DNA of 64,000 bases from a virus: positions 49,051 to 113,050 of IMG/VR virus record IMGVR_UViG_3300047483_000174; one strand, 5' to 3'. Position numbers and translations under genes: made by a program. The notes under the pieces were generated by a model, which searched no databases, was not told the origin of the DNA, and worked only from the letters and a program-made list of their open reading frames with translations. Of the stretch, positions 3,054-60,479 are shown piece by piece. Every line of letters starts with the position of its first letter. The stretch's first letter is position 1.

Positions 3054-4184
3054 TTACAAGGAGAAACCGCTGAAGGTATTTTTATCTACGTCTTGCTTTA
3101 CTGCACCGATAGTGTAAGAACTTAGTTCAACTTCTTGTGGTGCAACCTGAACTTCTGCCCCCGCAATCCACTTTTGTGTCCAAGGTAGTGGGTTTGACTG
3201 AGAAACAGTGTATGGGCATTTTAGGTTTACCGCTTGCATACGCTTACATGCGATCCACTCAATGTAGTCGTTCAATAGCTTGACGTTTAGACCGATCATT
3301 GAACCATCTTTAAATAGGTATTCTGCCCACTTCTTTTCTTGTTCAACCGCATCGACAAACATATGAATGCATTCTTCTTCAACTTCTTGTGCGATCTTGA
3401 TGTAATCTGGATCGTCCTTTGGTAGAAGTTTTAGTAGAGTCTGAGTTGATGCAAGGTGTAGGTTTTCATCACGAGCAATTAGCTTGATGATCTTTGCATT
3501 GCCTTCCATCTTCTTGAGTTCTGCAAATGCCCAAGAACAAGCGAATGAAACATAGAAGCGAACACCTTCCAAAATGTTTACACTCATAAGTGTTTTGTAA
3601 AGAGATTTTTTAATCTCATATGGATCAATCACAATTTCTTTGCCGTTTACGGTATGTGTTCCAGCACCCAATAGATTGAAATATGCAGATTGTTCAATCA
3701 ACTCATCATAGTTACGAGAAATATCATCTGCGCAATCCATGATTTCCTGAATGTCCATCATTTCATCAAACACCTTTGATGGGTCTGCATAGATATTACG
3801 AATGATATGAGTATATGAACGTGAGTGAATAGTTTCGGAGAAGGTCCAAGTTTGAATCCATGCTTCCAATTCTGGAATGGAAACAAGTGGACCAAATGCT
3901 TCAACTGGAGCACGTCCCTGAACAGAGTCAAGCAAAATCTGACGCTTTAGGTTGGACGTAAAGATGTGCTTCTCGTGGTCGGTGAGTTGCTTGAAATCGT
4001 TTGCATCTTTGATTACGTCAATTTCTTCTGGACGCCAGAAGAAACCAAGCTGCTTATCAGTGAGTTTGTCAAACTGTTTGTATTTCAGCATATCGTAACG
4101 CTGAATAGTAACCCCACCACTTGGGTCCATAAACGCAAGTGTTTTGGTGTGGTCGGCTTTGTTTTTCGAGTCAAATACTGACAT
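3054..4184 (-). CDS. nrdB: Ribonucleotide reductase class Ia beta subunit
   Basis: FFWRPEEID, QILLDSVQGR, ETIHSRSYTH, LEGVRFYVSF and IARDENLH di-iron ligand motifs. Confidence 0.97.
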   Translation of the reverse strand: MSVFDSKNKADHTKTLAFMDPSGGVTIQRYDMLKYKQFDKLTDKQLGFFWRPEEIDVIKDANDFKQLTDHEKHIFTSNLKRQILLDSVQGRAPVEAFGPLVSIPELEAWIQTWTFSETIHSRSYTHIIRNIYADPSKVFDEMMDIQEIMDCADDISRNYDELIEQSAYFNLLGAGTHTVNGKEIVIDPYEIKKSLYKTLMSVNILEGVRFYVSFACSWAFAELKKMEGNAKIIKLIARDENLHLASTQTLLKLLPKDDPDYIKIAQEVEEECIHMFVDAVEQEKKWAEYLFKDGSMIGLNVKLLNDYIEWIACKRMQAVNLKCPYTVSQSNPLPWTQKWIAGAEVQVAPQEVELSSYTIGAVKQDVDKNTFSGFSL

Positions 4185-4206
4185 TTTTTCTCTCTCTCTT
4201 TTTATT

Positions 4207-6501
4207 TTAAATTACACAACTATCGCAATCTTCTGCCTCTATATCAGACAATTGCTCTTCTTGCATTAGTTTTCCTACGTCAACTTCGCCTTGGCCATCG
4301 TAAGTATTGAAGTAGTATAGCTGCTTTCCGCCATACTTATAGAACATGAGTAGATGCTGTAGCATCACCGACATTGGTATTTTTTCATCTTCAAAGTAAA
4401 CGGGGTTGTATGATGTGTTTACGGAAATACCTTGGTCAATATATTTCTGCAAAACTGCACAAATCTTCAAATAACCTTCTGGTGATTTCTGATCCCATAG
4501 AAGTTCATACTTATTCTTTAGTTTATGAATACCTGGAACAACTTGCTTCAATACCCCATGCTTTGACTGCTTTACAGAAACAAGTGAACGTGGCGGCTCA
4601 ATTCCATTCGTTGAGTTTGAAATTTGTGCCGATGTTTCTGCTGGCATAAGTGCCATAAGGGTTGAATTGCGAATACCGTAAGTTTTCAAATCTTCGCGGA
4701 GTGATACCCAATCCATACGCTCTTGATATGGAACAAGTTCGTCAACCTCTATCTTGCGGGTATCCATTGGAACGATACCAAGACCGTAGCGAGTTTCGTT
4801 GGTGCCTTCACATGGTCCTTGTTCTTTTGCCAGTTCAACAGACGCCTTGATTAGATAGTATGACCATGCTTCTGCCCACTCGTCAACCATTTCCAAGTTT
4901 GGGTTGCTGTAAGTCATATCATTCTTCGCCATCCAATATGCAAAGTTGATAATACCAACACCAATTGGGCGGCGCTTCATAGTAGAAAGCTGTGCCGCAA
5001 GGACTGGATAATTCTGGTAAGATAGCAATGCGTCAATGCCGCGAACCGCCAAACGACAAATACGTTCAAAATCGGAAAGAGTTTTGATTACGCCCCAATT
5101 TACCGCAGACAATGTGCAAAGTGAAATTTCACCATTTGGATCATTGAAGTCCGTCAATGGCTTTGTTGGTAGGTCAATCTCTTGGCAAAGGTTACTTTGA
5201 CGAATTGGTGCAACTTCTGGCAAGAATGAACCATGAGAGTTTACATGGTCTACGTTTTGTAGATAGATGCGACCAGTATTTTTACGTTCGTTCATAAACG
5301 AAGAAAACAGTTCAATTGCTGGAACTACTTTCTTACGTATCTTGTTTGAACGCTCTGCCTTTTCATATAGTTCTTTGAACTTATCTTGGTCAGCAAAGAA
5401 CGCTTCATACAACCCAGGAACATCACTCGGAGAGAATAAAGTAATATTTCCTCCAGTCAATAGGCGCTCATACATCAACTTGTTGAACTGAACACTGTAG
5501 TCAAGGTGACGAACTCGGTTTTCTTCGGTTCCTTTGTTGTTCTTGAGAACTAATAGGTCTTCAACTTCCAAATGCCAAATTGGATAGTGTAGTGTTGCAG
5601 CACCGCCTCTTACCCCACCTTGTGAGCAAGATTTGACCGCAGCTTGAAATAGTTTATAGAATGGAATGACACCAGTATGTGATGCATCGCCATTGCGAAT
5701 TGGAGAGTTGATTGCACGAATACTACCAGCGCCAATACCAATGCCAGCCTTTTGTGAAACATACTTCACCACTGCACTGGATGTGGCATTGATTGAATCC
5801 AAAGAGTCATCCGTTTCAATAACAACACAAGAACTGAATTGACGCTGTGGAGTTCTGACCCCCGCCATGATTGGGGTTGGAAGAGAAATTTCAAATAGAC
5901 TGATTGAGTCGTAGTAATCTTTTACCCACTTTAGACGCTCACTCTGTTCATATTCGCTGAACAGAGTTGCAGCGATAAGAATGTATGCGACCTGTGGGGT
6001 TTCAAATAGTTGTTTGGTGACTCGGTTTTGGACTAGATATTTGCCACGAAACTGTTCCATTCCGACATATGAAATGGTAAAGTCACGGTCATGCTTGATG
6101 AAGCCGTTGATTTTTTCCCATTCTTCTTCTGTGTAGGAAGTAAGCAATGCTGGATCATAGAAGCCTTTTTCTACGTTTCGTTTTACAATGTCTAGGATAT
6201 GCCAAGGAGTAAAATCGCCATACACTTCTTTGCGAATGTGATAGTTGATTAGGTTTCCTGCCACCCATTGATAATTTGGGGTGTCTTCTGTAATCAAGTC
6301 TGCGGCAGACTTGATTAGTGTTTCTTGAATTTCAGAACTTGAAATTCCATTAAAGAATTGAATGTGTGATTTGATTTCTACTTCACTTGGTGATACGCCA
6401 TTGATGCCTTCGCAAGCGGCGAATACAACTCGGTGCATCTTTTCAAGATCAATAGGTTCTTTACGTCCGTCTCTTTTTGTTATTAATATATTGCTCATCA
6501 T
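4207..6501 (-). CDS. nrdA: Ribonucleotide reductase class Ia alpha subunit with N-terminal ATP cone
   Basis: ITKRDG ATP cone, RQFSSC, QSNLCQEI, CTLSA, C-terminal CDSC. Confidence 0.97.
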   Translation of the reverse strand: MMSNILITKRDGRKEPIDLEKMHRVVFAACEGINGVSPSEVEIKSHIQFFNGISSSEIQETLIKSAADLITEDTPNYQWVAGNLINYHIRKEVYGDFTPWHILDIVKRNVEKGFYDPALLTSYTEEEWEKINGFIKHDRDFTISYVGMEQFRGKYLVQNRVTKQLFETPQVAYILIAATLFSEYEQSERLKWVKDYYDSISLFEISLPTPIMAGVRTPQRQFSSCVVIETDDSLDSINATSSAVVKYVSQKAGIGIGAGSIRAINSPIRNGDASHTGVIPFYKLFQAAVKSCSQGGVRGGAATLHYPIWHLEVEDLLVLKNNKGTEENRVRHLDYSVQFNKLMYERLLTGGNITLFSPSDVPGLYEAFFADQDKFKELYEKAERSNKIRKKVVPAIELFSSFMNERKNTGRIYLQNVDHVNSHGSFLPEVAPIRQSNLCQEIDLPTKPLTDFNDPNGEISLCTLSAVNWGVIKTLSDFERICRLAVRGIDALLSYQNYPVLAAQLSTMKRRPIGVGIINFAYWMAKNDMTYSNPNLEMVDEWAEAWSYYLIKASVELAKEQGPCEGTNETRYGLGIVPMDTRKIEVDELVPYQERMDWVSLREDLKTYGIRNSTLMALMPAETSAQISNSTNGIEPPRSLVSVKQSKHGVLKQVVPGIHKLKNKYELLWDQKSPEGYLKICAVLQKYIDQGISVNTSYNPVYFEDEKIPMSVMLQHLLMFYKYGGKQLYYFNTYDGQGEVDVGKLMQEEQLSDIEAEDCDSCVI

Positions 6502-53890: not shown

Positions 53891-55612
53891 TTATACTTTC
53901 GTTATATCTTCTTCACCTTCTTCTGGTGCGTTTTCGGCCCCAGATATTGGCGAACCTTCTTCTTGGTCGGGTTCTTCATTTTCAAAATCGAACTCATCAC
54001 CTCCACCAAAATCTGGTGCTGGTGGCGGTGCAGCGCCCATACTCTGTAGTTCATCTTCAGATGCTTGTGTTGGGTCATTTACGTCATGTTCTTCTCGCCA
54101 CATACGTTCGTTTTCTAGAATCTCATCTTCTGTCATCCCAAGGAAACGCTTCATAGCAAAACGCTTACTGATATATTCAACATCTGCAATTGAAGTAAAG
54201 ACTTGCATCATTACGCTATCAACTTCTGCCTGACGGAACTTTCCAAAGTGCTGTGGCGGATTGAATTTTATGTCAAACATAGAACTTTCAACTTCAATGC
54301 CACGGTGCTTCAAGAACATCTTGAACTCTCTATCAAGTTCTTCTGCAATAAGTGATTGCAATCTTTCGCAGAACTTGGTAAATCTAAATTCTTGAATCAT
54401 TGCAGTTCCGACACGGCCATCAGAATAAGATGAACCAGCATCCGCATCACTTGTTCCCATATAGCTCGGCGGAACTCTCAATCCACGGAATAGTTTGTTA
54501 TTGAAGAAACGCAAATCGTCAATCTGTCCTAAATTTTCACCACCAGGAAGTGTTTCTACCTTGGAACCACGCCCTTCTGATGTTTGAGCAAAAAAGTAAT
54601 CTTCCATAATTGAAAGTGGGTTATACGCACTATCAGTAATGTTCTGACCACCACCAGTTTTTGATGGTATTCTGCGCTGGTGAATTTCATTCTTGATGCG
54701 TTCCAAATGAGCACGAGCCTTGTGAGTTGGCATGTTTCCAACATCAATATAGAACACTCTGCGTTCTGGAGCACGCTGAACACGATAGATTAGAATAGCA
54801 TCTTCAAGAAGTTCTTTTTGCTTGTATACCTTGAATACTGGTTCAAGAATACTTGTTCCAAATGGCCAATAGTTATCAATACCTTCGCTTAGAGAGATAT
54901 GAACAATGTGGGCTGCATCTATTGGCATAGACTGTTGTTCGTTTGAATATCTTGAACCACCAGAACCTATTGGCATAACCGATGTTGCGCCCGCTGCACT
55001 GGCATTGATAGATGGAATACCAACCGAATAGCCTGTAGGAAGATTTTGCATCTTCTCTTGCGGTGCGGCAACCGACATAGATTCAACATTCAAATCAATG
55101 TCCTTGATGAAATACACTTCTGGTTTTTTACCCTTGCCTTCGTTTACAAGAACCTTTTCAACTTTGGCAGGGTCAACCCAATATAGCTTATATGTTTCTG
55201 GGTCACGAACAAATACTTGATCCCCGTATTTGATTGCGTTTCTGAATATACGAAATGCTCTTTTCTTCAAGTCATTTATATTGACCCATTGACGTAATGA
55301 TTTTTGAAGAACTTCACTTTCAGATTCAGATGGGTCTTCGTTCCATTCAATCATGAATGGAATGTTGGTATTTTCGTCTTTGAGAGTTGAGAACTCGGCA
55401 ATGACATCAAGGGCAGCATTTACTTCGCTGTCCAAATCCATTTGGTCATATTGTCCATAACGCTGAACTCTGTTTGGTTGTCCTTGATAAACTTCTGGCA
55501 ACCAACTTGAATACTTCTTATTTGAAGCATCACCAGCATTATAAGACGCCGATCTTTCTGTAACTCTATCAGACCCCGTATAAGGTTTGAAGTATTTTTT
55601 CCAAGTCGCCAT
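53891..55612 (-). CDS. gp20: Portal protein (gp20-like)
   Basis: LLEDAILIYRVQRAPERRVFYIDVGNMP, MEDYFF, GSKVETLPGG, LRVPPSY. Confidence 0.97.
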   Translation of the reverse strand: MATWKKYFKPYTGSDRVTERSASYNAGDASNKKYSSWLPEVYQGQPNRVQRYGQYDQMDLDSEVNAALDVIAEFSTLKDENTNIPFMIEWNEDPSESESEVLQKSLRQWVNINDLKKRAFRIFRNAIKYGDQVFVRDPETYKLYWVDPAKVEKVLVNEGKGKKPEVYFIKDIDLNVESMSVAAPQEKMQNLPTGYSVGIPSINASAAGATSVMPIGSGGSRYSNEQQSMPIDAAHIVHISLSEGIDNYWPFGTSILEPVFKVYKQKELLEDAILIYRVQRAPERRVFYIDVGNMPTHKARAHLERIKNEIHQRRIPSKTGGGQNITDSAYNPLSIMEDYFFAQTSEGRGSKVETLPGGENLGQIDDLRFFNNKLFRGLRVPPSYMGTSDADAGSSYSDGRVGTAMIQEFRFTKFCERLQSLIAEELDREFKMFLKHRGIEVESSMFDIKFNPPQHFGKFRQAEVDSVMMQVFTSIADVEYISKRFAMKRFLGMTEDEILENERMWREEHDVNDPTQASEDELQSMGAAPPPAPDFGGGDEFDFENEEPDQEEGSPISGAENAPEEGEEDITKV

Positions 55613-55667: not shown

Positions 55668-58619
55668 TTATTGCAATGCGCCAATCAATTGGTCTAACTT
55701 TGCAGTGAGTATACGTATATCTTCTGAACCAGTTTTCTGTTCTAATTGTGGTTTATTAGCTGCTACACTCTCACTAAGTTGCTGTAAAATCTGAAGCATC
55801 TGTCGTTTTGATTCTTCGCTATCACCAAGACTTTTTTGAAGATCATCAAAATAGGCAGAAAACTGTTCATCGGTCGCATTGATACCCGTATCATTGAAAC
55901 CAACAATGTTACTTACGCCAGTATATACTTGCTGCATTTGCTCTGTATTTTGCTGACCAGGAATCATCATTCCTTGAACGAATGATCTTTCTGCAAGTTT
56001 TTGCTCAGATACAGACAAAACAGGAACTTCAGATGGTGATTGAAGAGATTCAACTGTAATTCCTGGTAGGTCGGAAAGAAGTGCTTCTCTTAGACTATCG
56101 GCATTTCCTCCAAGGAGATTTATAAAATCTTGATTTGTAAACATCTCGTCAATGATTTTTTTCATCTCATCAGACGTTATACCAGTTTCTCTCATATTAT
56201 TAACTGCTTCTTGAGCAAGCATAGTTGCTTTTATTTCGTCAGAAACATCGCTCATATCGTTTACAGCGGGTATCACTTCGCTGAGACGTTCTTGTATAGC
56301 AATTGGTGCTATTTCTTTTATAGCTGCTGTTGCCTGTTCTTGGTCGAGTCGGGCAGAAGTATTGGTTCCGTTTTCAGATTCAATCTTTGCATTGCGATAA
56401 GACTCGTAGTATCTTTCTCTCATTAGTCTATTCATACGAGTTTCAATATTGTCAGTGGCAGCTTCTAATCCACTTGTTATAATCTTAGATTGTTCTTCTA
56501 TGATATATGTATCAATTGCGTTCTGTTCCAATGGGTCAGTCATTTGAGAACGTAATGCTTCAAGCTCTGCTATTCGTTGCCTTGCTTCTTCTACGTTGCC
56601 AGCCCAAGTAAAGTTATTCCACGTTGAGTACTCTGTGTCTTCCACTGCGGATTCTACCTTTTTAATTTGTTCTGGGTTCATATTGGCATAGATGTCTTGT
56701 CTTTTTACCCGTTGTTGTTCCTGAATTACTTCGGATGTATCGGCCAATTCTCTGTAGTCACCAGCCATATGATGGTCTGGAAACAAGTCTGCTACTCCCT
56801 GTGCGAACACATTTATTGTTCCCATTAACATTTCATTTGCGGTAGCGCCCATACTAACAAGGCTTGCTAAAAATCCATCTGCCTTTGTTGCTAACGTGTC
56901 AATTACATCAATTTGACCTTCTATTATACCGGTCTGTGCATTTAAAATTCTACTAAGTTCACGTGTGTTATCCAATGTTTTTAATACACTCGCGTTTAAG
57001 TTATCAAGGGCAACGCCTCTACGTCTTTCCGCATCTTGGCGGCGGCGTTCCGCTCTGTCCACTTCTGGAGCAGATATTTTATTAACAGCATCCTGTGCGG
57101 TTTGTGCCATTCTACCAAGACCAGCAACAATTGAAGAAACTTCTGCATCACCACTGGCAACAAGTTGTGCAACAAGAGGGTCATTTGCGACTGTATCTGC
57201 CATCTGCTTGGTATAACGAGCAACAAGTTCGTCTGTTCCCCTCCCAGCACGTAATTCCATCATCATTTGTTCAGCAATCGCCCTTACACCAGACAATGCT
57301 GGATTGTTAAGTGCTGCAAACTCTTGAGTCAACATAAATCTATTTGGGTCAATCGCACCTTTCGCAATAATCTCTCCAAGTGGACCCATTTTAGCCATAG
57401 CACCAATTTCATTTATAACTTCTTGTGAAAGTTGCATTGAATTTGTCATAAGCATTGCAGATATATCATCTCTACCAAGGTAATCTCGTATCATTTTTGC
57501 AGATTCTTCAAGTGAAGTTTTGAGAACCATCGATACACCCTCAACAGCATCCATAAATGATTTCATACCTCTATCTCGTTCTGAGGCAGAGATTTGTTCT
57601 AGTAATCCAGTTCTTTGAAGTGTGTCGAGATATGTTCCCGAAATCTTAGCGACTTGCGAGAAATTCACACCATATCTATCCATTATGTCTGTTGCATAGG
57701 CTACTTTATTGACAAACTCCAATGCGGCATTAGTTCCAGTGACACCAACAGCATTTGAAAATTCTCTTACAAATTGTGTTGCCTCAACGATAGTCATACC
57801 ATTATCGCTAAAGGCTTTAGTGGTATCAACAAAAGATGCACCCAAATCTTCGATGAGTCCACTTTGTCTTAGTTCGGTGGTTATTTCAAAACGGTCTTTG
57901 ACTTGTTGCATCATCATCTCAAATGGAACTTGAGATGCAGCATAAGCTGCACTAGCTGCGCCAAACGCTTTTTTAGCAACTCCCATAGGACCAGAGCCTA
58001 ATCCGATAGAATCAAGAAGTCCACTTAACATATCATCGCCCTTGACTGGTGCATTGACTCCCAAATTATTCTTAATATCTTTTAGATTTGCAACTATGTC
58101 TTTAGTATTAAATCCTTTTGTTACCTCGTCTCCGAAATCTTTAAAAAACTCTTTCATAGCTTTAGCCTGTGACATAATACTTCTATTATTTTGTTTCAAC
58201 AAGTCTTCAACATATTTTTTAATATTTGGTTCTAATTTTTGTAATCCAGAAACAGCTTGTGTAACCTCGTCTTGTTGTAACGATGGAGGTGGAGTTGCAT
58301 CTGTTGACTTTTTATTTTTTAAGTATGACAAGGATTTTATAATATCGGTATGAGTTTGTTGCAAAATACCTATAATCTTTTTAAATTCTTTTGCAGCCTC
58401 GGAATTCCCAGATGATATAGAACTAACATTAGACAAAAGCGTATTCATATTCCCAATAAGTTTTGCAGTATTAGAATCGCCACTTTTTATTGCATTTGCT
58501 ATATTATTATCACCATTTTTTATGGCGTTCAAAATACCCTGTTGCGTTGTTTCAGACGCCCAAGATGGTAAATCAGTTCCTGTAATATGAACGTTTTGTT
58601 GATTTGGATCAGTTGCCAT
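55668..58619 (-). CDS. Tape-measure-like protein
   Basis: 983 aa, helical Ala/Met/Gln-rich; LPSWASETT N-terminus; divergent from the tail chaperone gene. Confidence 0.6.
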   Translation of the reverse strand: MATDPNQQNVHITGTDLPSWASETTQQGILNAIKNGDNNIANAIKSGDSNTAKLIGNMNTLLSNVSSISSGNSEAAKEFKKIIGILQQTHTDIIKSLSYLKNKKSTDATPPPSLQQDEVTQAVSGLQKLEPNIKKYVEDLLKQNNRSIMSQAKAMKEFFKDFGDEVTKGFNTKDIVANLKDIKNNLGVNAPVKGDDMLSGLLDSIGLGSGPMGVAKKAFGAASAAYAASQVPFEMMMQQVKDRFEITTELRQSGLIEDLGASFVDTTKAFSDNGMTIVEATQFVREFSNAVGVTGTNAALEFVNKVAYATDIMDRYGVNFSQVAKISGTYLDTLQRTGLLEQISASERDRGMKSFMDAVEGVSMVLKTSLEESAKMIRDYLGRDDISAMLMTNSMQLSQEVINEIGAMAKMGPLGEIIAKGAIDPNRFMLTQEFAALNNPALSGVRAIAEQMMMELRAGRGTDELVARYTKQMADTVANDPLVAQLVASGDAEVSSIVAGLGRMAQTAQDAVNKISAPEVDRAERRRQDAERRRGVALDNLNASVLKTLDNTRELSRILNAQTGIIEGQIDVIDTLATKADGFLASLVSMGATANEMLMGTINVFAQGVADLFPDHHMAGDYRELADTSEVIQEQQRVKRQDIYANMNPEQIKKVESAVEDTEYSTWNNFTWAGNVEEARQRIAELEALRSQMTDPLEQNAIDTYIIEEQSKIITSGLEAATDNIETRMNRLMRERYYESYRNAKIESENGTNTSARLDQEQATAAIKEIAPIAIQERLSEVIPAVNDMSDVSDEIKATMLAQEAVNNMRETGITSDEMKKIIDEMFTNQDFINLLGGNADSLREALLSDLPGITVESLQSPSEVPVLSVSEQKLAERSFVQGMMIPGQQNTEQMQQVYTGVSNIVGFNDTGINATDEQFSAYFDDLQKSLGDSEESKRQMLQILQQLSESVAANKPQLEQKTGSEDIRILTAKLDQLIGALQ

Positions 58620-58713: not shown

Positions 58714-59553
58714 ATGTCAAACCCATTACTAAAACATTTTAGAAAACCAACCGCTTACATTCAATTGCCAACTCGTGGTATTTTCAACCCAGAAATAGAA
58801 AAAACAGTCATAGATGAAGTTCCAATACTTCCGATGACCGCCATAGACGAAATCGGATTGAAAAACCCTGACGCCCTACTGAACGGAGAAGCACTCGTAA
58901 ATCTCATTCGTAGCTGCGTTCCGTCTATTCCTGACCCATACAAAATTCCAAACATAGATGCAGAAGCATTGTATTTGGCGATACGTTATGCAACGTATGG
59001 AAAAGATACAACTCACACTCATACATGCAGCAAGTGTAAGGAAGTCAGTGATTTTAATATAGACATAAACTACATTCTGAGTAGATTTCCAGTGATAGAT
59101 GAATCGCCAACCGTTTCATATGATGGACTCACCATTCACATAAGACCAAACACCCTTCGTTCAATAATGAAAGTTTCAATTATTGAAGCAGAACAAACAA
59201 AACTGATAAACTTTTACGCATCCCCAGAATTTGAATACAATGATGAAGAGTCTGCCGCAAAAAGAATTTACGACAGTTTCAGAAAAATTGCTATTCATAA
59301 TGTGGATGTGGTTTCGGACGCCATCTTGAAAATTGAAGATGATGAAGGAAACGAGATTGATGACCAAAAATATATTGCAGAATTTTTGAATAACGTTCCA
59401 AGTAGTCTTATTGCGGAAATTCAACAAAAAGTAAAATCAATTTCAAAACTTCCAGAAGATGCATCAATTACAGAATTCCAATGTCCTTCTTGTAATCACA
59501 AAGACAAAGTGAAGATTGAGTTTAACCCAGTAAATTTTTCCGTAGCTGGCTAG
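58714..59553 (+). CDS. gp26-like baseplate hub / tail assembly chaperone; likely start MSNPLL at 58714
   Basis: NPLLKHFRKPTAYIQLPTRG, PMTAIDE..LKNPDALLNGEA, D...L.LAIR.ATYG, two CxxC motifs. Confidence 0.8.
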   Translation: MSNPLLKHFRKPTAYIQLPTRGIFNPEIEKTVIDEVPILPMTAIDEIGLKNPDALLNGEALVNLIRSCVPSIPDPYKIPNIDAEALYLAIRYATYGKDTTHTHTCSKCKEVSDFNIDINYILSRFPVIDESPTVSYDGLTIHIRPNTLRSIMKVSIIEAEQTKLINFYASPEFEYNDEESAAKRIYDSFRKIAIHNVDVVSDAILKIEDDEGNEIDDQKYIAEFLNNVPSSLIAEIQQKVKSISKLPEDASITEFQCPSCNHKDKVKIEFNPVNFSVAG

Positions 59554-59771
59554 TAACCGCTAGTCAGCAGGATATAGCAAAAAAATTGTCAGATTATAAA
59601 AAACAGCTTGACGCGACTCACAAGAATCTGATACAATTAACTTGGTATATGAGAGGCGGCGTGTCACTATCTGAGATATATGACATGCCAGTTACGCACA
59701 TTCAACATATTCACAAAGTTATTGGTGAAAATTTTGAAATGTCGAAAAAAGCTAAAACACCAATTATATAA
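59538..59771 (+). CDS. -1 frameshift extension of the chaperone (gp51-/gpT-like segment, WYMRGGVSLSEIYDM)
   Basis: Frame open from 59526; no ATG with RBS; slippery heptamer and hairpin at the junction. Confidence 0.75.
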   Translation, partial: FRSWLVTASQQDIAKKLSDYKKQLDATHKNLIQLTWYMRGGVSLSEIYDMPVTHIQHIHKVIGENFEMSKKAKTPII

Positions 59772-60325
59772 AATACACATCTAATATCTAACTAATACAT
59801 ACCCGTATTGAGGGACGCGCACCTGATGATAAAAGCGCACTTCCAAACAAATGAGATTAAGGTTGACACGCCGTCTGTAATTGTGTCGGGAATCCGTTCT
59901 GATGTGTGACGGTAACCAAACGGGTATGCTCATTTACTCGCTGCAACACACTACCCCATCCTTGTAGGTGGGATGCCTTAAACGTCCTAATTAGTGAACC
60001 GTTTGTGTTGTAGGAATGGTTGGTAGTCTGGAAACAGATGAAAAAACGTGGGTAGCCCTGAAGGCTACTTTACGACCAGTTTTATGTGACATACTAAACA
60101 ATAGTCACTAACCGTGGACAGGCAATAATACGCACTGTCAACTACTCTATATACTGAAGTCTTGTCTTGTTTTAGAGTGGTGCCGTTGGGTCGAAAGACG
60201 CAAAACTGAATGATGGGGGGATAGCCAACCGACCCCGCCCTACTCTGGGGGCTAGTTCAATGACGAGATAACCGATGCCAGAGATGTATCTGTTTTTTAA
60301 TTTGCTCCCCCAGTGGGGGCAAATA
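59772..60325 (+). ncRNA. Putative large structured non-coding RNA of unassigned family
   Basis: No convincing ORF; at least eight predicted helices including long-range pairings, a GAAA tetraloop and a possible pseudoknot; GC-richer than the downstream AT-rich flank. Confidence 0.55.
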
Positions 60326-60479
60326 TACCTCAACCGAGATGATATATATCATTGATGATTCAATGATAATATGTAATACATAAGTAATAAGAAAGAATAA
60401 TCCCGATGAATGGAATAACGAATGATAATGAGTTATTCCATTCAGAGAGGATTGGTCTTTAGACCAAATAGGATTCCTT

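What the first reader, a model, noticed from the sequence alone, without database searches (positions are those of the whole stretch)
59526..59771. Canonical -1 frameshift joining the gp26-like protein to a gp51/gpT-like tail: lambda G/GT logic in a T4-like jumbo phage
Seen: slippery heptamer A AAT TTT (59532-59538, in-frame N-F), a 6-nt spacer, then a 9-bp hairpin GCTGGCTAG/CTAGTCAGC (59545-59568) containing the frame-0 stop. The -1 frame is open for 77 codons (FRSWLVTASQQ...WYMRGGVSLSEIYDM...) with no ATG/RBS of its own, giving 279-aa and 352-aa products. The gene is adjacent (divergent) to the tape-measure-like gene. Established: lambda G/GT and P2 E/E' tail chaperones use such a frameshift. 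Inference: proteins usually labelled baseplate hub gp26 and gp51 in this group are a frameshifting tape-measure chaperone pair.
Basis: partly seen in the sequence, partly recalled or inferred. Interest (0 to 1): 0.75.

Follow-up and report, generated by a model that had tools for sequence, protein, structure and literature searches.

The report
Conserved frameshift makes gp26 and gp51 forms
In this marine jumbo phage and its RaK2/121Q/PA5oct-like relatives, one tail-hub assembly gene appears to make a short and a long protein by a conserved -1 ribosomal slip. Phage T4 encodes the same two forms as separate genes (gp26 and gp51), which ties the one phage lineage reported to lack the lambda G/GT-type frameshift back to that logic.

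Summary
The PF12322 (T4 gp26/gp51 family) gene at 58714-59553 carries an in-register A_AAT_TTT heptamer (59532-59538). A 6-nt spacer and a 10-bp hairpin follow, and a 77-codon -1 frame opens just before the site.

All 30 related loci examined carry an in-register heptamer, mostly T_TTT_TTC, at the homologous codon, followed by a homologous -1 ORF of 69-80 codons. These loci include 14 cultured jumbo phages with only 24-34% protein identity. Several extensions have no usable start codon, and PA5oct has none at all.

The extension aligns with the C-terminal segment that T4 gp51 has and gp26 lacks. Complete jumbo genomes hold one PF12322 gene, whereas T4 holds two. Other jumbo lineages carry a tandem short copy plus a long copy with the extension fused in frame at a non-slippery junction.

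No fusion protein has been observed. The tape-measure-chaperone role is inferred only: no sequence or fold similarity to lambda gpG/gpT-type chaperones was found. None of the 14 GenBank records marks the slippage, and no paper I could search describes it.

The parts
58714..59553 (+). Zero-frame ORF for the short product (279 aa). It is a gp26-like hub assembly protein with two CxxC zinc-ribbon motifs.
   Evidence: PF12322 T4_baseplate E 5e-18 and phrog_150 E 8e-19, covering profile positions 10-229 of 282. The AF2 model has pLDDT 85.5.
59532..59538 (+). Slippery heptamer A_AAT_TTT (Asn-Phe in the zero frame).
   Evidence: The homologous position holds T_TTT_TTC, T_TTT_TTT or A_AAT_TTT in 30 of 30 related loci. 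Both motifs fall in the H_HH.U_UU.Y class, which is among the most efficient in E. coli (PMC4066793).
59539..59544 (+). 6-nt spacer between the heptamer and the hairpin.
59545..59568 (+). Stem-loop with a 10-bp stem and 4-nt loop, containing the zero-frame stop TAG 59551-59553. It is a candidate frameshift stimulator.
   Evidence: -17.8 kcal/mol, z -4.2. A 5-8 bp core recurs in clade relatives, but covariation is not significant.
59538..59771 (+). -1 frame extension of 77 codons plus stop. Joined to the first 275 codons it gives the 352-aa long, gp51-like product.
   Evidence: A coding signature in the -1 frame is present even before any start codon. The extension is homologous in all relatives, aligns with the gp51 C-terminus, and occurs fused in frame in 19 representative proteins.
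55668..58619 (-). Divergent 983-aa neighbour, a candidate tail tape measure protein.
   Evidence: The synteny portal / large protein / PF12322 gene is seen in most relatives. Homologues are virion proteins by mass spectrometry in PA5oct and CBB (29 peptides). The nearest named Atlas clusters are tape measure proteins at 0.92, which is weak evidence. There is no Pfam tape-measure hit.
53891..55612 (-). T4-type portal gene (gp20-like). This is context only.
   Evidence: PF07230 E 1e-111.

Best explanation
The gene at 58714-59553 is the single PF12322 (T4 gp26/gp51 family) hub-assembly gene of this jumbo myovirus.

Most ribosomes terminate at TAG 59551 and make a 279-aa gp26-like protein. A minority slip back one base on A_AAU_UUU. 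The Asn tRNA re-pairs from AAU to AAA and the Phe tRNA from UUU to UUU, probably helped by the hairpin 6 nt downstream. These ribosomes then read 77 more codons and give a 352-aa protein whose extra helical C-terminal module matches the one that distinguishes T4 gp51 from gp26.

The phage therefore makes both forms, in a ratio set by slip efficiency, from one gene. T4 encodes them as two paralogous genes, and some other jumbo phages as two tandem genes.

What is shown: the sequence anatomy, its conservation, the coding signature of the extension, the homology to gp51, and the existence of in-frame fusions and tandem pairs. What is inferred: that the slip is ribosomal and actually occurs, its efficiency, and the function. 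By analogy with T4 gp26/gp51 (hub assembly chaperones, with gp51 absent from the virion) and with lambda G/GT, the pair probably assists assembly of the central hub and tape-measure complex.
For: 1. Slip-site conservation. An in-register heptamer plus an open -1 ORF of 69-80 codons is found in 30 of 30 loci. These include 14 cultured phages at 24-34% identity. The background heptamer rate is 0.005 per codon, and the synonymous conservation has p about 1e-7.
2. Lack of independent starts. PA5oct has no ATG, GTG or TTG anywhere in its extension. The first start lies at codon index 26-37 (from 0) in RaK2, L016-L022, L024 and L027. Even so, the residues FFR..LL..PEEI just after the site are conserved, and the -1 frame shows a synonymous excess before any start codon.
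3. T4 comparison. gp26 and gp51 are both PF12322/phrog_150. gp26 ends (..KEFFELL*) where the jumbo zero frame ends (..DPSxFF..), and gp51 continues for about 48 more residues.
4. Extension-to-gp51 homology. An extension MSA against a gp51 C-terminus MSA gives hhalign score 23.5, P 0.0011, while 30 column-shuffled controls reach at most 16.4. Fused products against full gp51 align colinearly to the end of gp51, E 7.5e-5. The natural long forms P0233 and P0295 align to phrog_150 positions 258 and 270, a part that gp51 reaches but gp26 does not.
5. Gene counts. 121Q, RaK2, PA5oct and Atu_ph07 each have one PF12322 gene, and T4 has two.
6. Natural fusions. 19 representative proteins of 319-351 aa carry the extension in frame, and 8 of 8 tested are PF12322. 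In L039 and L040 such a long gene sits in tandem with a short copy. L039 shows the full portal / large protein / PF12322 synteny. The long genes' junctions are non-slippery.
7. Motif class. H_HH.U_UU.Y motifs are efficient -1 shifters in E. coli (PMC4066793).
8. Virion absence. The gp26-like protein is not in the CBB virion mass-spectrometry table although its neighbour is. T4 gp51 is required for assembly but absent from particles (PMC3004832).
Against: - No protein or RNA data exist for the fusion. The junction peptide has not been observed.
- In Phosso, Atu_ph07 and 121Q an ATG overlaps or abuts the zero-frame stop (ATGA / TAATG). There a separate ~75-aa product made by translational coupling is also possible.
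- Hairpin covariation in the window's clade is not significant. In several relatives the downstream structure is weak or absent.
- The extension-to-gp51 similarity is modest: hhalign probability is only 11-20% for the short segment alone.
- No similarity to known tail assembly chaperones was detected.
- The neighbouring gene is not demonstrably a tape measure.
Confidence: 0.85

Rival explanations
1. There are two separate proteins and no fusion. The downstream frame is translated on its own, by initiation at TTG 59586 or by termination-reinitiation coupling at the gp26-like stop, and gives a small independent partner protein.
For: GenBank annotators call a separate small ORF in 12 of 14 relatives, and PHROGs has a family for it (phrog_18291). 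Phosso and Atu_ph07 have ATGA overlaps and 121Q has TAATG. An AGGA lies 13 nt upstream of TTG 59586 in the window.
Against: - PA5oct has no start codon in the extension. RaK2, L016-L022, L024 and L027 have none before codon index 26-37.
- Conserved residues and a coding signature lie upstream of the window's TTG.
- The slippery heptamer is conserved at synonymous sites, which a coupling model does not need.
- In-frame fusions and T4 gp51 show that the module works as a C-terminal extension.
- The AGGA-to-TTG spacing of 13 nt is poor.
Confidence: 0.07
2. The same fused protein arises by transcriptional slippage. RNA polymerase adds one U on the T-run, so that a fraction of the mRNAs carries the extension in frame.
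For: The site is a T6 run in most relatives and T7 in RAS14. Homopolymer runs are known slippage sites, and AAAAAAA/UUUUUUU are avoided in E. coli genes partly for that reason (PMC4066793).
Against: - The window and several relatives (L016, L018-L020, L022, L028, L029, L031) have only T5 preceded by A3, still in exact X_XXY_YYZ register.
- The second Phe codon is TTC in 15 of 16 lineages, which keeps the run at six.
- From my own knowledge, productive bacterial RNA polymerase slippage usually needs runs of about 7-9.
- A hairpin 6 nt downstream is the usual geometry for ribosomal -1 shifting.
Confidence: 0.06
3. The arrangement is a sequencing or assembly error, or a decaying gene: a real single ORF broken by a homopolymer miscall, or a pseudogene.
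For: The break lies in a homopolymer run, which is a typical error site.
Against: The same -1 arrangement appears in 30 independent assemblies, including 14 finished isolate genomes from different laboratories. Both frames are under purifying selection. Lineages that have a single in-frame long gene also carry a separate short copy.
Confidence: 0.02

Closest known systems
Lambda gpG/gpGT tail assembly chaperones (-1 frameshift at G_GGA_AAG). The P2 E/E' pair, which I recall from memory as using a T-rich heptamer, is a second example.
   Same: A -1 slip near the 3' end of a tail-assembly gene gives an abundant short form and a rarer long form that share an N-terminal part. In lambda neither product is in the virion. 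The gene neighbours the presumed tape measure gene. The reviewed literature states that this frameshift is conserved in long-tailed phages 'except T4' (PMC5009743).
   Different: - The protein family differs: PF12322 with two zinc ribbons and 279 aa, against about 130-aa TACs.
- No Pfam, PHROGs or fold match to TACs was found.
- The gene is transcribed divergently from the tape-measure-like gene, not placed between the tube and tape measure genes.
- Binding to the tape measure and tube proteins is untested.
T4 gp26 and gp51 (baseplate hub assembly chaperone / 'catalyst')
   Same: They belong to the same family, PF12322 and phrog_150. The short product ends where gp26 ends. The long product carries the gp51-type C-terminal module. 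gp51 is required for hub assembly but absent from the particle (PMC3004832).
   Different: T4 uses two divergently transcribed paralogous genes and has no slippery site (AAA GAG TTC TTT GAG). T4 gene 26 also has an annotated internal product, 26'. In the tree, T4 gp26 and gp51 are each other's closest relatives, so the T4 split looks independent of the tandem pairs in jumbo phages.
Tandem short and long PF12322 gene pairs in other uncultured jumbo phages (L039, L040)
   Same: L039 shows the same synteny (portal, large protein, then PF12322 genes). L040 is a short contig on which that context cannot be seen. Both have the same two forms, and the long form carries the same extension.
   Different: There is no frameshift. 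The junction of the long gene is non-slippery. The short copy of L040 keeps a relic AAT TTT TTC, but its -1 frame is closed.

Membership tests
-1 programmed ribosomal frameshift site (tandem-slippage type) | X_XXY_YYZ heptamer in register with the zero frame | tested here: met
   A_AAT_TTT lies at 59532-59538. T_TTT_TTY or A_AAT_TTT is in register in 30 of 30 relatives.
-1 programmed ribosomal frameshift site (tandem-slippage type) | A -1 ORF that overlaps the end of the zero-frame ORF, is under coding selection, and lacks its own conserved start | tested here: met
   The extension is 69-80 codons in all loci. PA5oct has no start codon and others have none before codon index 26-37. Synonymous excess is specific to the -1 frame.
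-1 programmed ribosomal frameshift site (tandem-slippage type) | Downstream stimulatory RNA structure at a 5-9 nt spacing | tested here: inconclusive
   The window has a strong hairpin (-17.8 kcal/mol, z -4.2, 6-nt spacer). Many relatives have weaker stems at a similar distance, and some have none. Covariation is not significant.
-1 programmed ribosomal frameshift site (tandem-slippage type) | The trans-frame protein is actually produced | not testable with these tools
   No proteomic or reporter data are available for this phage. The published data I saw for PA5oct and CBB are virion-only.
PF12322 T4_baseplate (gp26/gp51 family) | HMM match above the curated threshold | tested here: met
   66 bits against a cut-off of 24.5. 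The genome search gives 65.3 bits.
T4 gp51-type long form | C-terminal module after the second zinc ribbon, homologous to the gp51-specific tail | tested here: met
   - hhalign P 0.0011, score 23.5, against at most 16.4 in 30 shuffles.
- Colinear full-length alignment, E 7.5e-5.
- The long forms P0233 and P0295 reach phrog_150 positions 258 and 270.

Support is moderate because the segment is short.
Lambda G/GT-type tail assembly chaperone | Sequence or fold similarity to known TAC families | tested here: inconclusive
   No TAC family appears in Pfam or PHROGs for either part. No solved-structure match was found beyond a generic helical hairpin. An absent match does not exclude a shared fold.
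Lambda G/GT-type tail assembly chaperone | Gene located directly upstream of, and co-transcribed with, the tape measure gene | tested here: not met
   The gene is divergent from the 983-aa tape-measure-like gene. In Atu_ph07, RAS14 and Vibrio 2.275.O the upstream neighbours are arranged differently.
Lambda G/GT-type tail assembly chaperone | Both forms bind the tape measure protein, the long form also binds the tube protein, and both are absent from virions | not testable with these tools
   Only indirect evidence exists. CBB_250 is missing from the virion MS table while CBB_251 is present. The PA5oct gp26-like gene carries no MS note while its neighbour does.

The most novel reading that the evidence does not exclude
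The PF12322 proteins are the missing tail-assembly-chaperone system of T4-type myoviruses. Under this reading the short (gp26-like) form coats the tape measure and hub, and the long (gp51-like) form uses its C-terminal module to recruit the tube-initiating proteins, exactly as lambda G/GT does.

The -1 frameshift would be the ancestral way of setting the ratio of the two forms. T4 and some jumbo lineages would then have independently replaced it by gene duplication, which would explain why T4 looked like the sole exception to the conserved G/GT frameshift.
Probability: 0.35. Interest if true: 0.85.

Novelty: new variant of a known kind. Interest (0 to 1): 0.72.

Why it matters
The conserved -1 frameshift in tail assembly chaperone genes is a textbook feature of long-tailed phages, and T4 is cited as the exception (PMC5009743). 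This finding bears on that exception in three ways.

- It shows a conserved frameshift of the same logic in distant T4 relatives, in the very gene family whose two T4 paralogues (gp26 and gp51) have been 'hub assembly chaperones' of unknown mechanism for decades.
- It gives a concrete, testable model for gp26 and gp51: the same protein with or without a C-terminal adaptor module, needed in unequal amounts.
- It provides natural examples of one function encoded in three ways: by frameshift, by tandem genes, and by divergent genes.

Practically, it corrects the annotation of roughly a hundred jumbo phage genomes. There the extension is currently a 'hypothetical protein' or is missed entirely.

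Tried and rejected
- DNA-level search of the region against GenBank phages found nothing. Protein-level search was needed.
- Pfam and PHROGs on the 77-aa extension alone gave no significant family. The small ORFs of RaK2-like phages fall in phrog_18291, which has unknown function.
- A sequence search of the PDB gave no relative.
- Foldseek against the PDB, VIA-align against 48,000 chains, and Foldseek against AFDB Swiss-Prot gave no meaningful match for the short or long model. Only a generic helical hairpin (residues 144-207) matched. T4 gp26 and gp51 did not surface in the Swiss-Prot search, although BFVD returned many 'baseplate hub assembly' proteins.
- The tape-measure identity of the neighbour could not be confirmed. 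There are no Pfam TMP hits in the window protein or in five relatives. The T4 gp29 family is absent from four jumbo genomes. There is only a weak language-model lead.
- The hairpin covariation test was not significant.
- I could not fold or scan the exact 352-aa fused product, because a -1 join has no DNA reference. Natural in-frame long forms were used as proxies instead.
- The literature searches found no description of this frameshift. Subscription journals are not covered, so prior description cannot be excluded.

Full report
**What is at the site**

The + strand ORF at 58714-59553 encodes a 279-aa protein of the T4_baseplate family (PF12322, E 5e-18; phrog_150 'baseplate hub', E 8e-19). 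Its last codons are AAC CCA GTA AAT TTT TCC GTA GCT GGC TAG. The heptamer A_AAT_TTT (59532-59538) is therefore in X_XXY_YYZ register.

The -1 frame is closed by a TAA just upstream and opens at 59526. From 59538 it runs 77 codons to a stop at 59769-59771. A -1 slip gives a 352-aa protein with the junction ..NPVNF-FRSWLV... A 6-nt spacer precedes a hairpin at 59545-59568 with a 10-bp stem, and the zero-frame stop sits in its 5' arm. The 45 nt after the heptamer fold to -17.8 kcal/mol, z -4.2.

**Context**

Upstream and divergent lies a 983-aa ORF, followed by a T4-type portal gene (PF07230, E 1e-111). The window belongs to a 137-kb fragment of an uncultured virus. Its closest relatives are metagenomic, partly marine, contigs of up to 350 kb. 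Its cultured relatives are the RaK2, 121Q, GAP32, CBB, PA5oct, Atu_ph07, Phosso and XaC1 jumbo myoviruses: 94 GenBank records at 24-34% identity.

**Conservation of the slip site**

I fetched 14 diverse cultured relatives, 12 IMG/VR loci and 4 further metagenomic loci.

- In all 30 loci that could be read, the PF12322 gene ends with ..(F/Y)(D/N)P.xFF.. and carries an in-register heptamer at that spot. The heptamer is T_TTT_TTC in most, T_TTT_TTT in RAS14, and A_AAT_TTT in the window, L028, L029, L016, L018-L020, L022 and L031. Some clade members have both as A_AAT_TTT_TTC.
- In all of them the -1 frame is open from there for 69-80 codons.
- In-register heptamers elsewhere in these genes occur at 0.005 per codon.
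- Given the amino acids, the synonymous choices that make T_TTT_TTY in 16 diverged lineages have a joint probability of about 1e-7. This holds even in the GC-richer Phosso and RAS14, where TTT is the minority Phe codon.
- Both motifs belong to the H_HH.U_UU.Y class, listed among the most efficient -1 shifters in E. coli (PMC4066793).

**The extension is coding and needs the upstream ORF**

- The -1 peptides are homologous across all lineages. The RaK2 group reads FFR.(K/R)LL.S.PEE(I/V)...NTSYEMLLNMPV..RDL.V..YNKK. The window clade reads FFRSWL.TAS...WYMRGGVS.SE...MP..HI.
- PA5oct has no ATG, GTG or TTG anywhere in its 73-codon extension. RaK2 has none before codon index 30 (from 0), L018-L020 and L022 none before 37, L017, L021 and L024 none before 29, L027 none before 32 and L016 none before 26. 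The window has none before 16.
- In the window's clade, substitutions show third-position and synonymous excess specific to the -1 frame. This also holds in the first 15 codons, which lie upstream of TTG 59586.
- Independent initiation therefore cannot be the general way this peptide is made.
- It remains possible as an additional route where an ATG overlaps the stop (ATGA in Phosso and Atu_ph07, TAATG in 121Q).

**Relation to T4 gp26 and gp51**

- T4 gp26 (208 aa) and gp51 (249 aa) are paralogues. Both are PF12322 and phrog_150. gp26 covers profile positions 14-235 and gp51 covers 13-280 of 282.
- gp26 ends ..GLKEFFELL*, aligned with the jumbo zero-frame end ..DPSxFF. T4 has no slippery sequence there.
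- gp51 continues as ..VFKLLVNPDEIF....[28 protein letters not shown]. This resembles the jumbo extension in its KLL..P.EI motif and its ..Y.....MP..(E/D)R...L motif.
- Profile comparison of the extension against the gp51 C-terminus gives P 0.0027 with 26 sequences. With 156 sequences it gives P 0.0011 and score 23.5. Thirty column-shuffled controls scored 6.0-16.4 and the reversed control 11.0.
- Fused products align colinearly with full-length gp51 to its last residues (E 7.5e-5).
- This similarity is moderate on its own. It is reinforced by position, by the PHROG bridging below, and by the gene counts.

**One gene or two**

A six-frame search finds two PF12322 genes in T4 but only one in each of the complete genomes of 121Q, RaK2, PA5oct and Atu_ph07. 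The window's own incomplete record holds one. A phage with one gene would lack a gp51-type form unless the extension is added by recoding.

**Natural in-frame fusions and tandem pairs**

- A profile of the extension searched against 1.84 billion representative proteins found 192 hits at E <= 1e-3.
- Nineteen of these representatives are 319-351 aa and carry the extension at their C-terminus. Eight of eight tested are PF12322.
- Their junctions read ..LDPSTHFYQRLI.. or ..LDWSSSFRSRIL.., which is the frameshift product less one Phe, on non-slippery codons.
- Two of them, P0233 and P0295, align to phrog_150 as far as positions 258 and 270, a region gp26 does not reach.
- About eleven further representatives are gene-caller ORFs in the -1 frame that read ..FFR..LL.. 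across a slip site. They extend the count of lineages with the frameshift arrangement.
- On the 327-kb contig L039 the order is portal, 783-aa protein, then a 281-aa short PF12322 gene followed directly by the 335-aa long one. L040 carries a similar 294 + 351 aa pair.
- The short copies have a closed -1 frame. The L040 short copy still holds a relic AAT TTT TTC.

The same two forms are thus encoded in three ways: by frameshift, by tandem genes, and by divergent genes in T4.

**Phylogeny of the N-terminal domains**

In a maximum-likelihood tree, T4 gp26 and the gp51 group are sisters (100/99), apart from all jumbo sequences. Jumbo long forms and frameshift genes are intermixed. With the root between the two groups, this implies at least two independent splits into short and long genes. 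The deep branches are unresolved and three rows sit on long branches, so I draw no conclusion on which state is ancestral.

**Structure**

- AF2 models are confident for the window's short form (pLDDT 85.5) and for a natural long form (P0225, pLDDT 86.6, pTM 0.84). In the long form the extension forms three to four helices with pLDDT 83-95.
- Searches of solved structures and of AFDB Swiss-Prot gave nothing beyond a generic helical hairpin.
- BFVD shows that the fold is widespread in large myoviruses.
- No similarity to lambda gpG/gpT-type chaperones was detected. That is not evidence of absence, but it means membership in that family is not supported.

**The hairpin**

The hairpin is strong in the window, L028, L029 and L031. 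A 5-8-bp CUGG(C/U)...(G)CCAG core recurs in the clade. In L017 and L024 the 3' arm is supplied by different codons than in the others. The formal covariation test is not significant. Several distant relatives have only weak stems. I treat the hairpin as a likely but unproven stimulator.

**Function**

- The T4 literature lists gp26 and gp51 as hub assembly chaperones. gp51 is essential but absent from the particle (PMC3004832), and several sources name it 'baseplate hub assembly catalyst'.
- In CBB the large neighbour (CBB_251, 722 aa) is a virion protein with 29 peptides. The gp26-like CBB_250 is not in the virion table. The tail measures 123 nm.
- The 983-aa window protein has tape measure clusters as its nearest named neighbours in the ESM Atlas. 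The score of 0.92 is weak evidence. There is no Pfam support.
- A tape-measure and hub chaperone role with lambda G/GT logic is therefore a reasonable inference, but it was not tested here.

**Prior knowledge**

None of the 14 GenBank records marks a joined or slipped CDS. Full-text searches found no description. A major review states that the G-T frameshift is conserved in long-tailed phages 'except T4' (PMC5009743).

**Verdict**

This is a real, conserved recoding site. I put the chance that a trans-frame long product is made at about 0.9, and at about 0.85 specifically by ribosomal -1 slippage. The gp26/gp51 correspondence is well supported. The chaperone mechanism remains open.

Noticed in passing
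window 59772-60479; also L028, L029 and L031 downstream of the extension: A gene-free stretch of about 700-900 nt follows the extension in the window and in three clade relatives. Gene callers find nothing between the PF12322 gene and the next gene, or at most a 40-aa ORF that lies in the C-terminal part of the extension itself.
   Followed up: no
L040:411-1295: The short copy of a tandem short and long PF12322 pair still ends with an in-register AAT TTT TTC, but its -1 frame is closed at once (FFH**). It looks like a relic of a former slip site.
   Followed up: partly
L015 (T4) 3803-5229; tree: T4 gp26 and gp51 are each other's closest relatives (100/99) compared with all jumbo-phage homologues. 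The T4 split into two genes therefore seems independent of the tandem pairs in jumbo phages.
   Followed up: partly
slip sites of 16 lineages: The second Phe codon of the heptamer is TTC in 15 of 16 lineages, although TTT is the commoner Phe codon in most of these genes. The run is thus held at six T. This may be selection for U_UUU_UUC or against a longer, unstable homopolymer.
   Followed up: no
GenBank records behind, L012 and L006: Several homologues are misnamed. Yersinia phage fHe-Yen9-04 g243c is called 'Lead, cadmium, zinc and mercury transporting ATPase' (probably triggered by the CxxC motifs). Escherichia phage WPEC5 calls it 'portal protein'. CBB_250 is called 'structural protein', although it is absent from the published virion MS table.
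   Followed up: partly
BFVD hits: The PF12322-type fold is found by structure in many other large myoviruses, often in longer proteins of 400-690 aa. Examples are Bacillus SP-15 and BCD7, Campylobacter CP220, Ralstonia phiRSL1 and RSF1, Pseudomonas PaBG, Erwinia phiEaH2 and Special G, and Ackermannviridae. Whether any of these use recoding was not examined.
   Followed up: no
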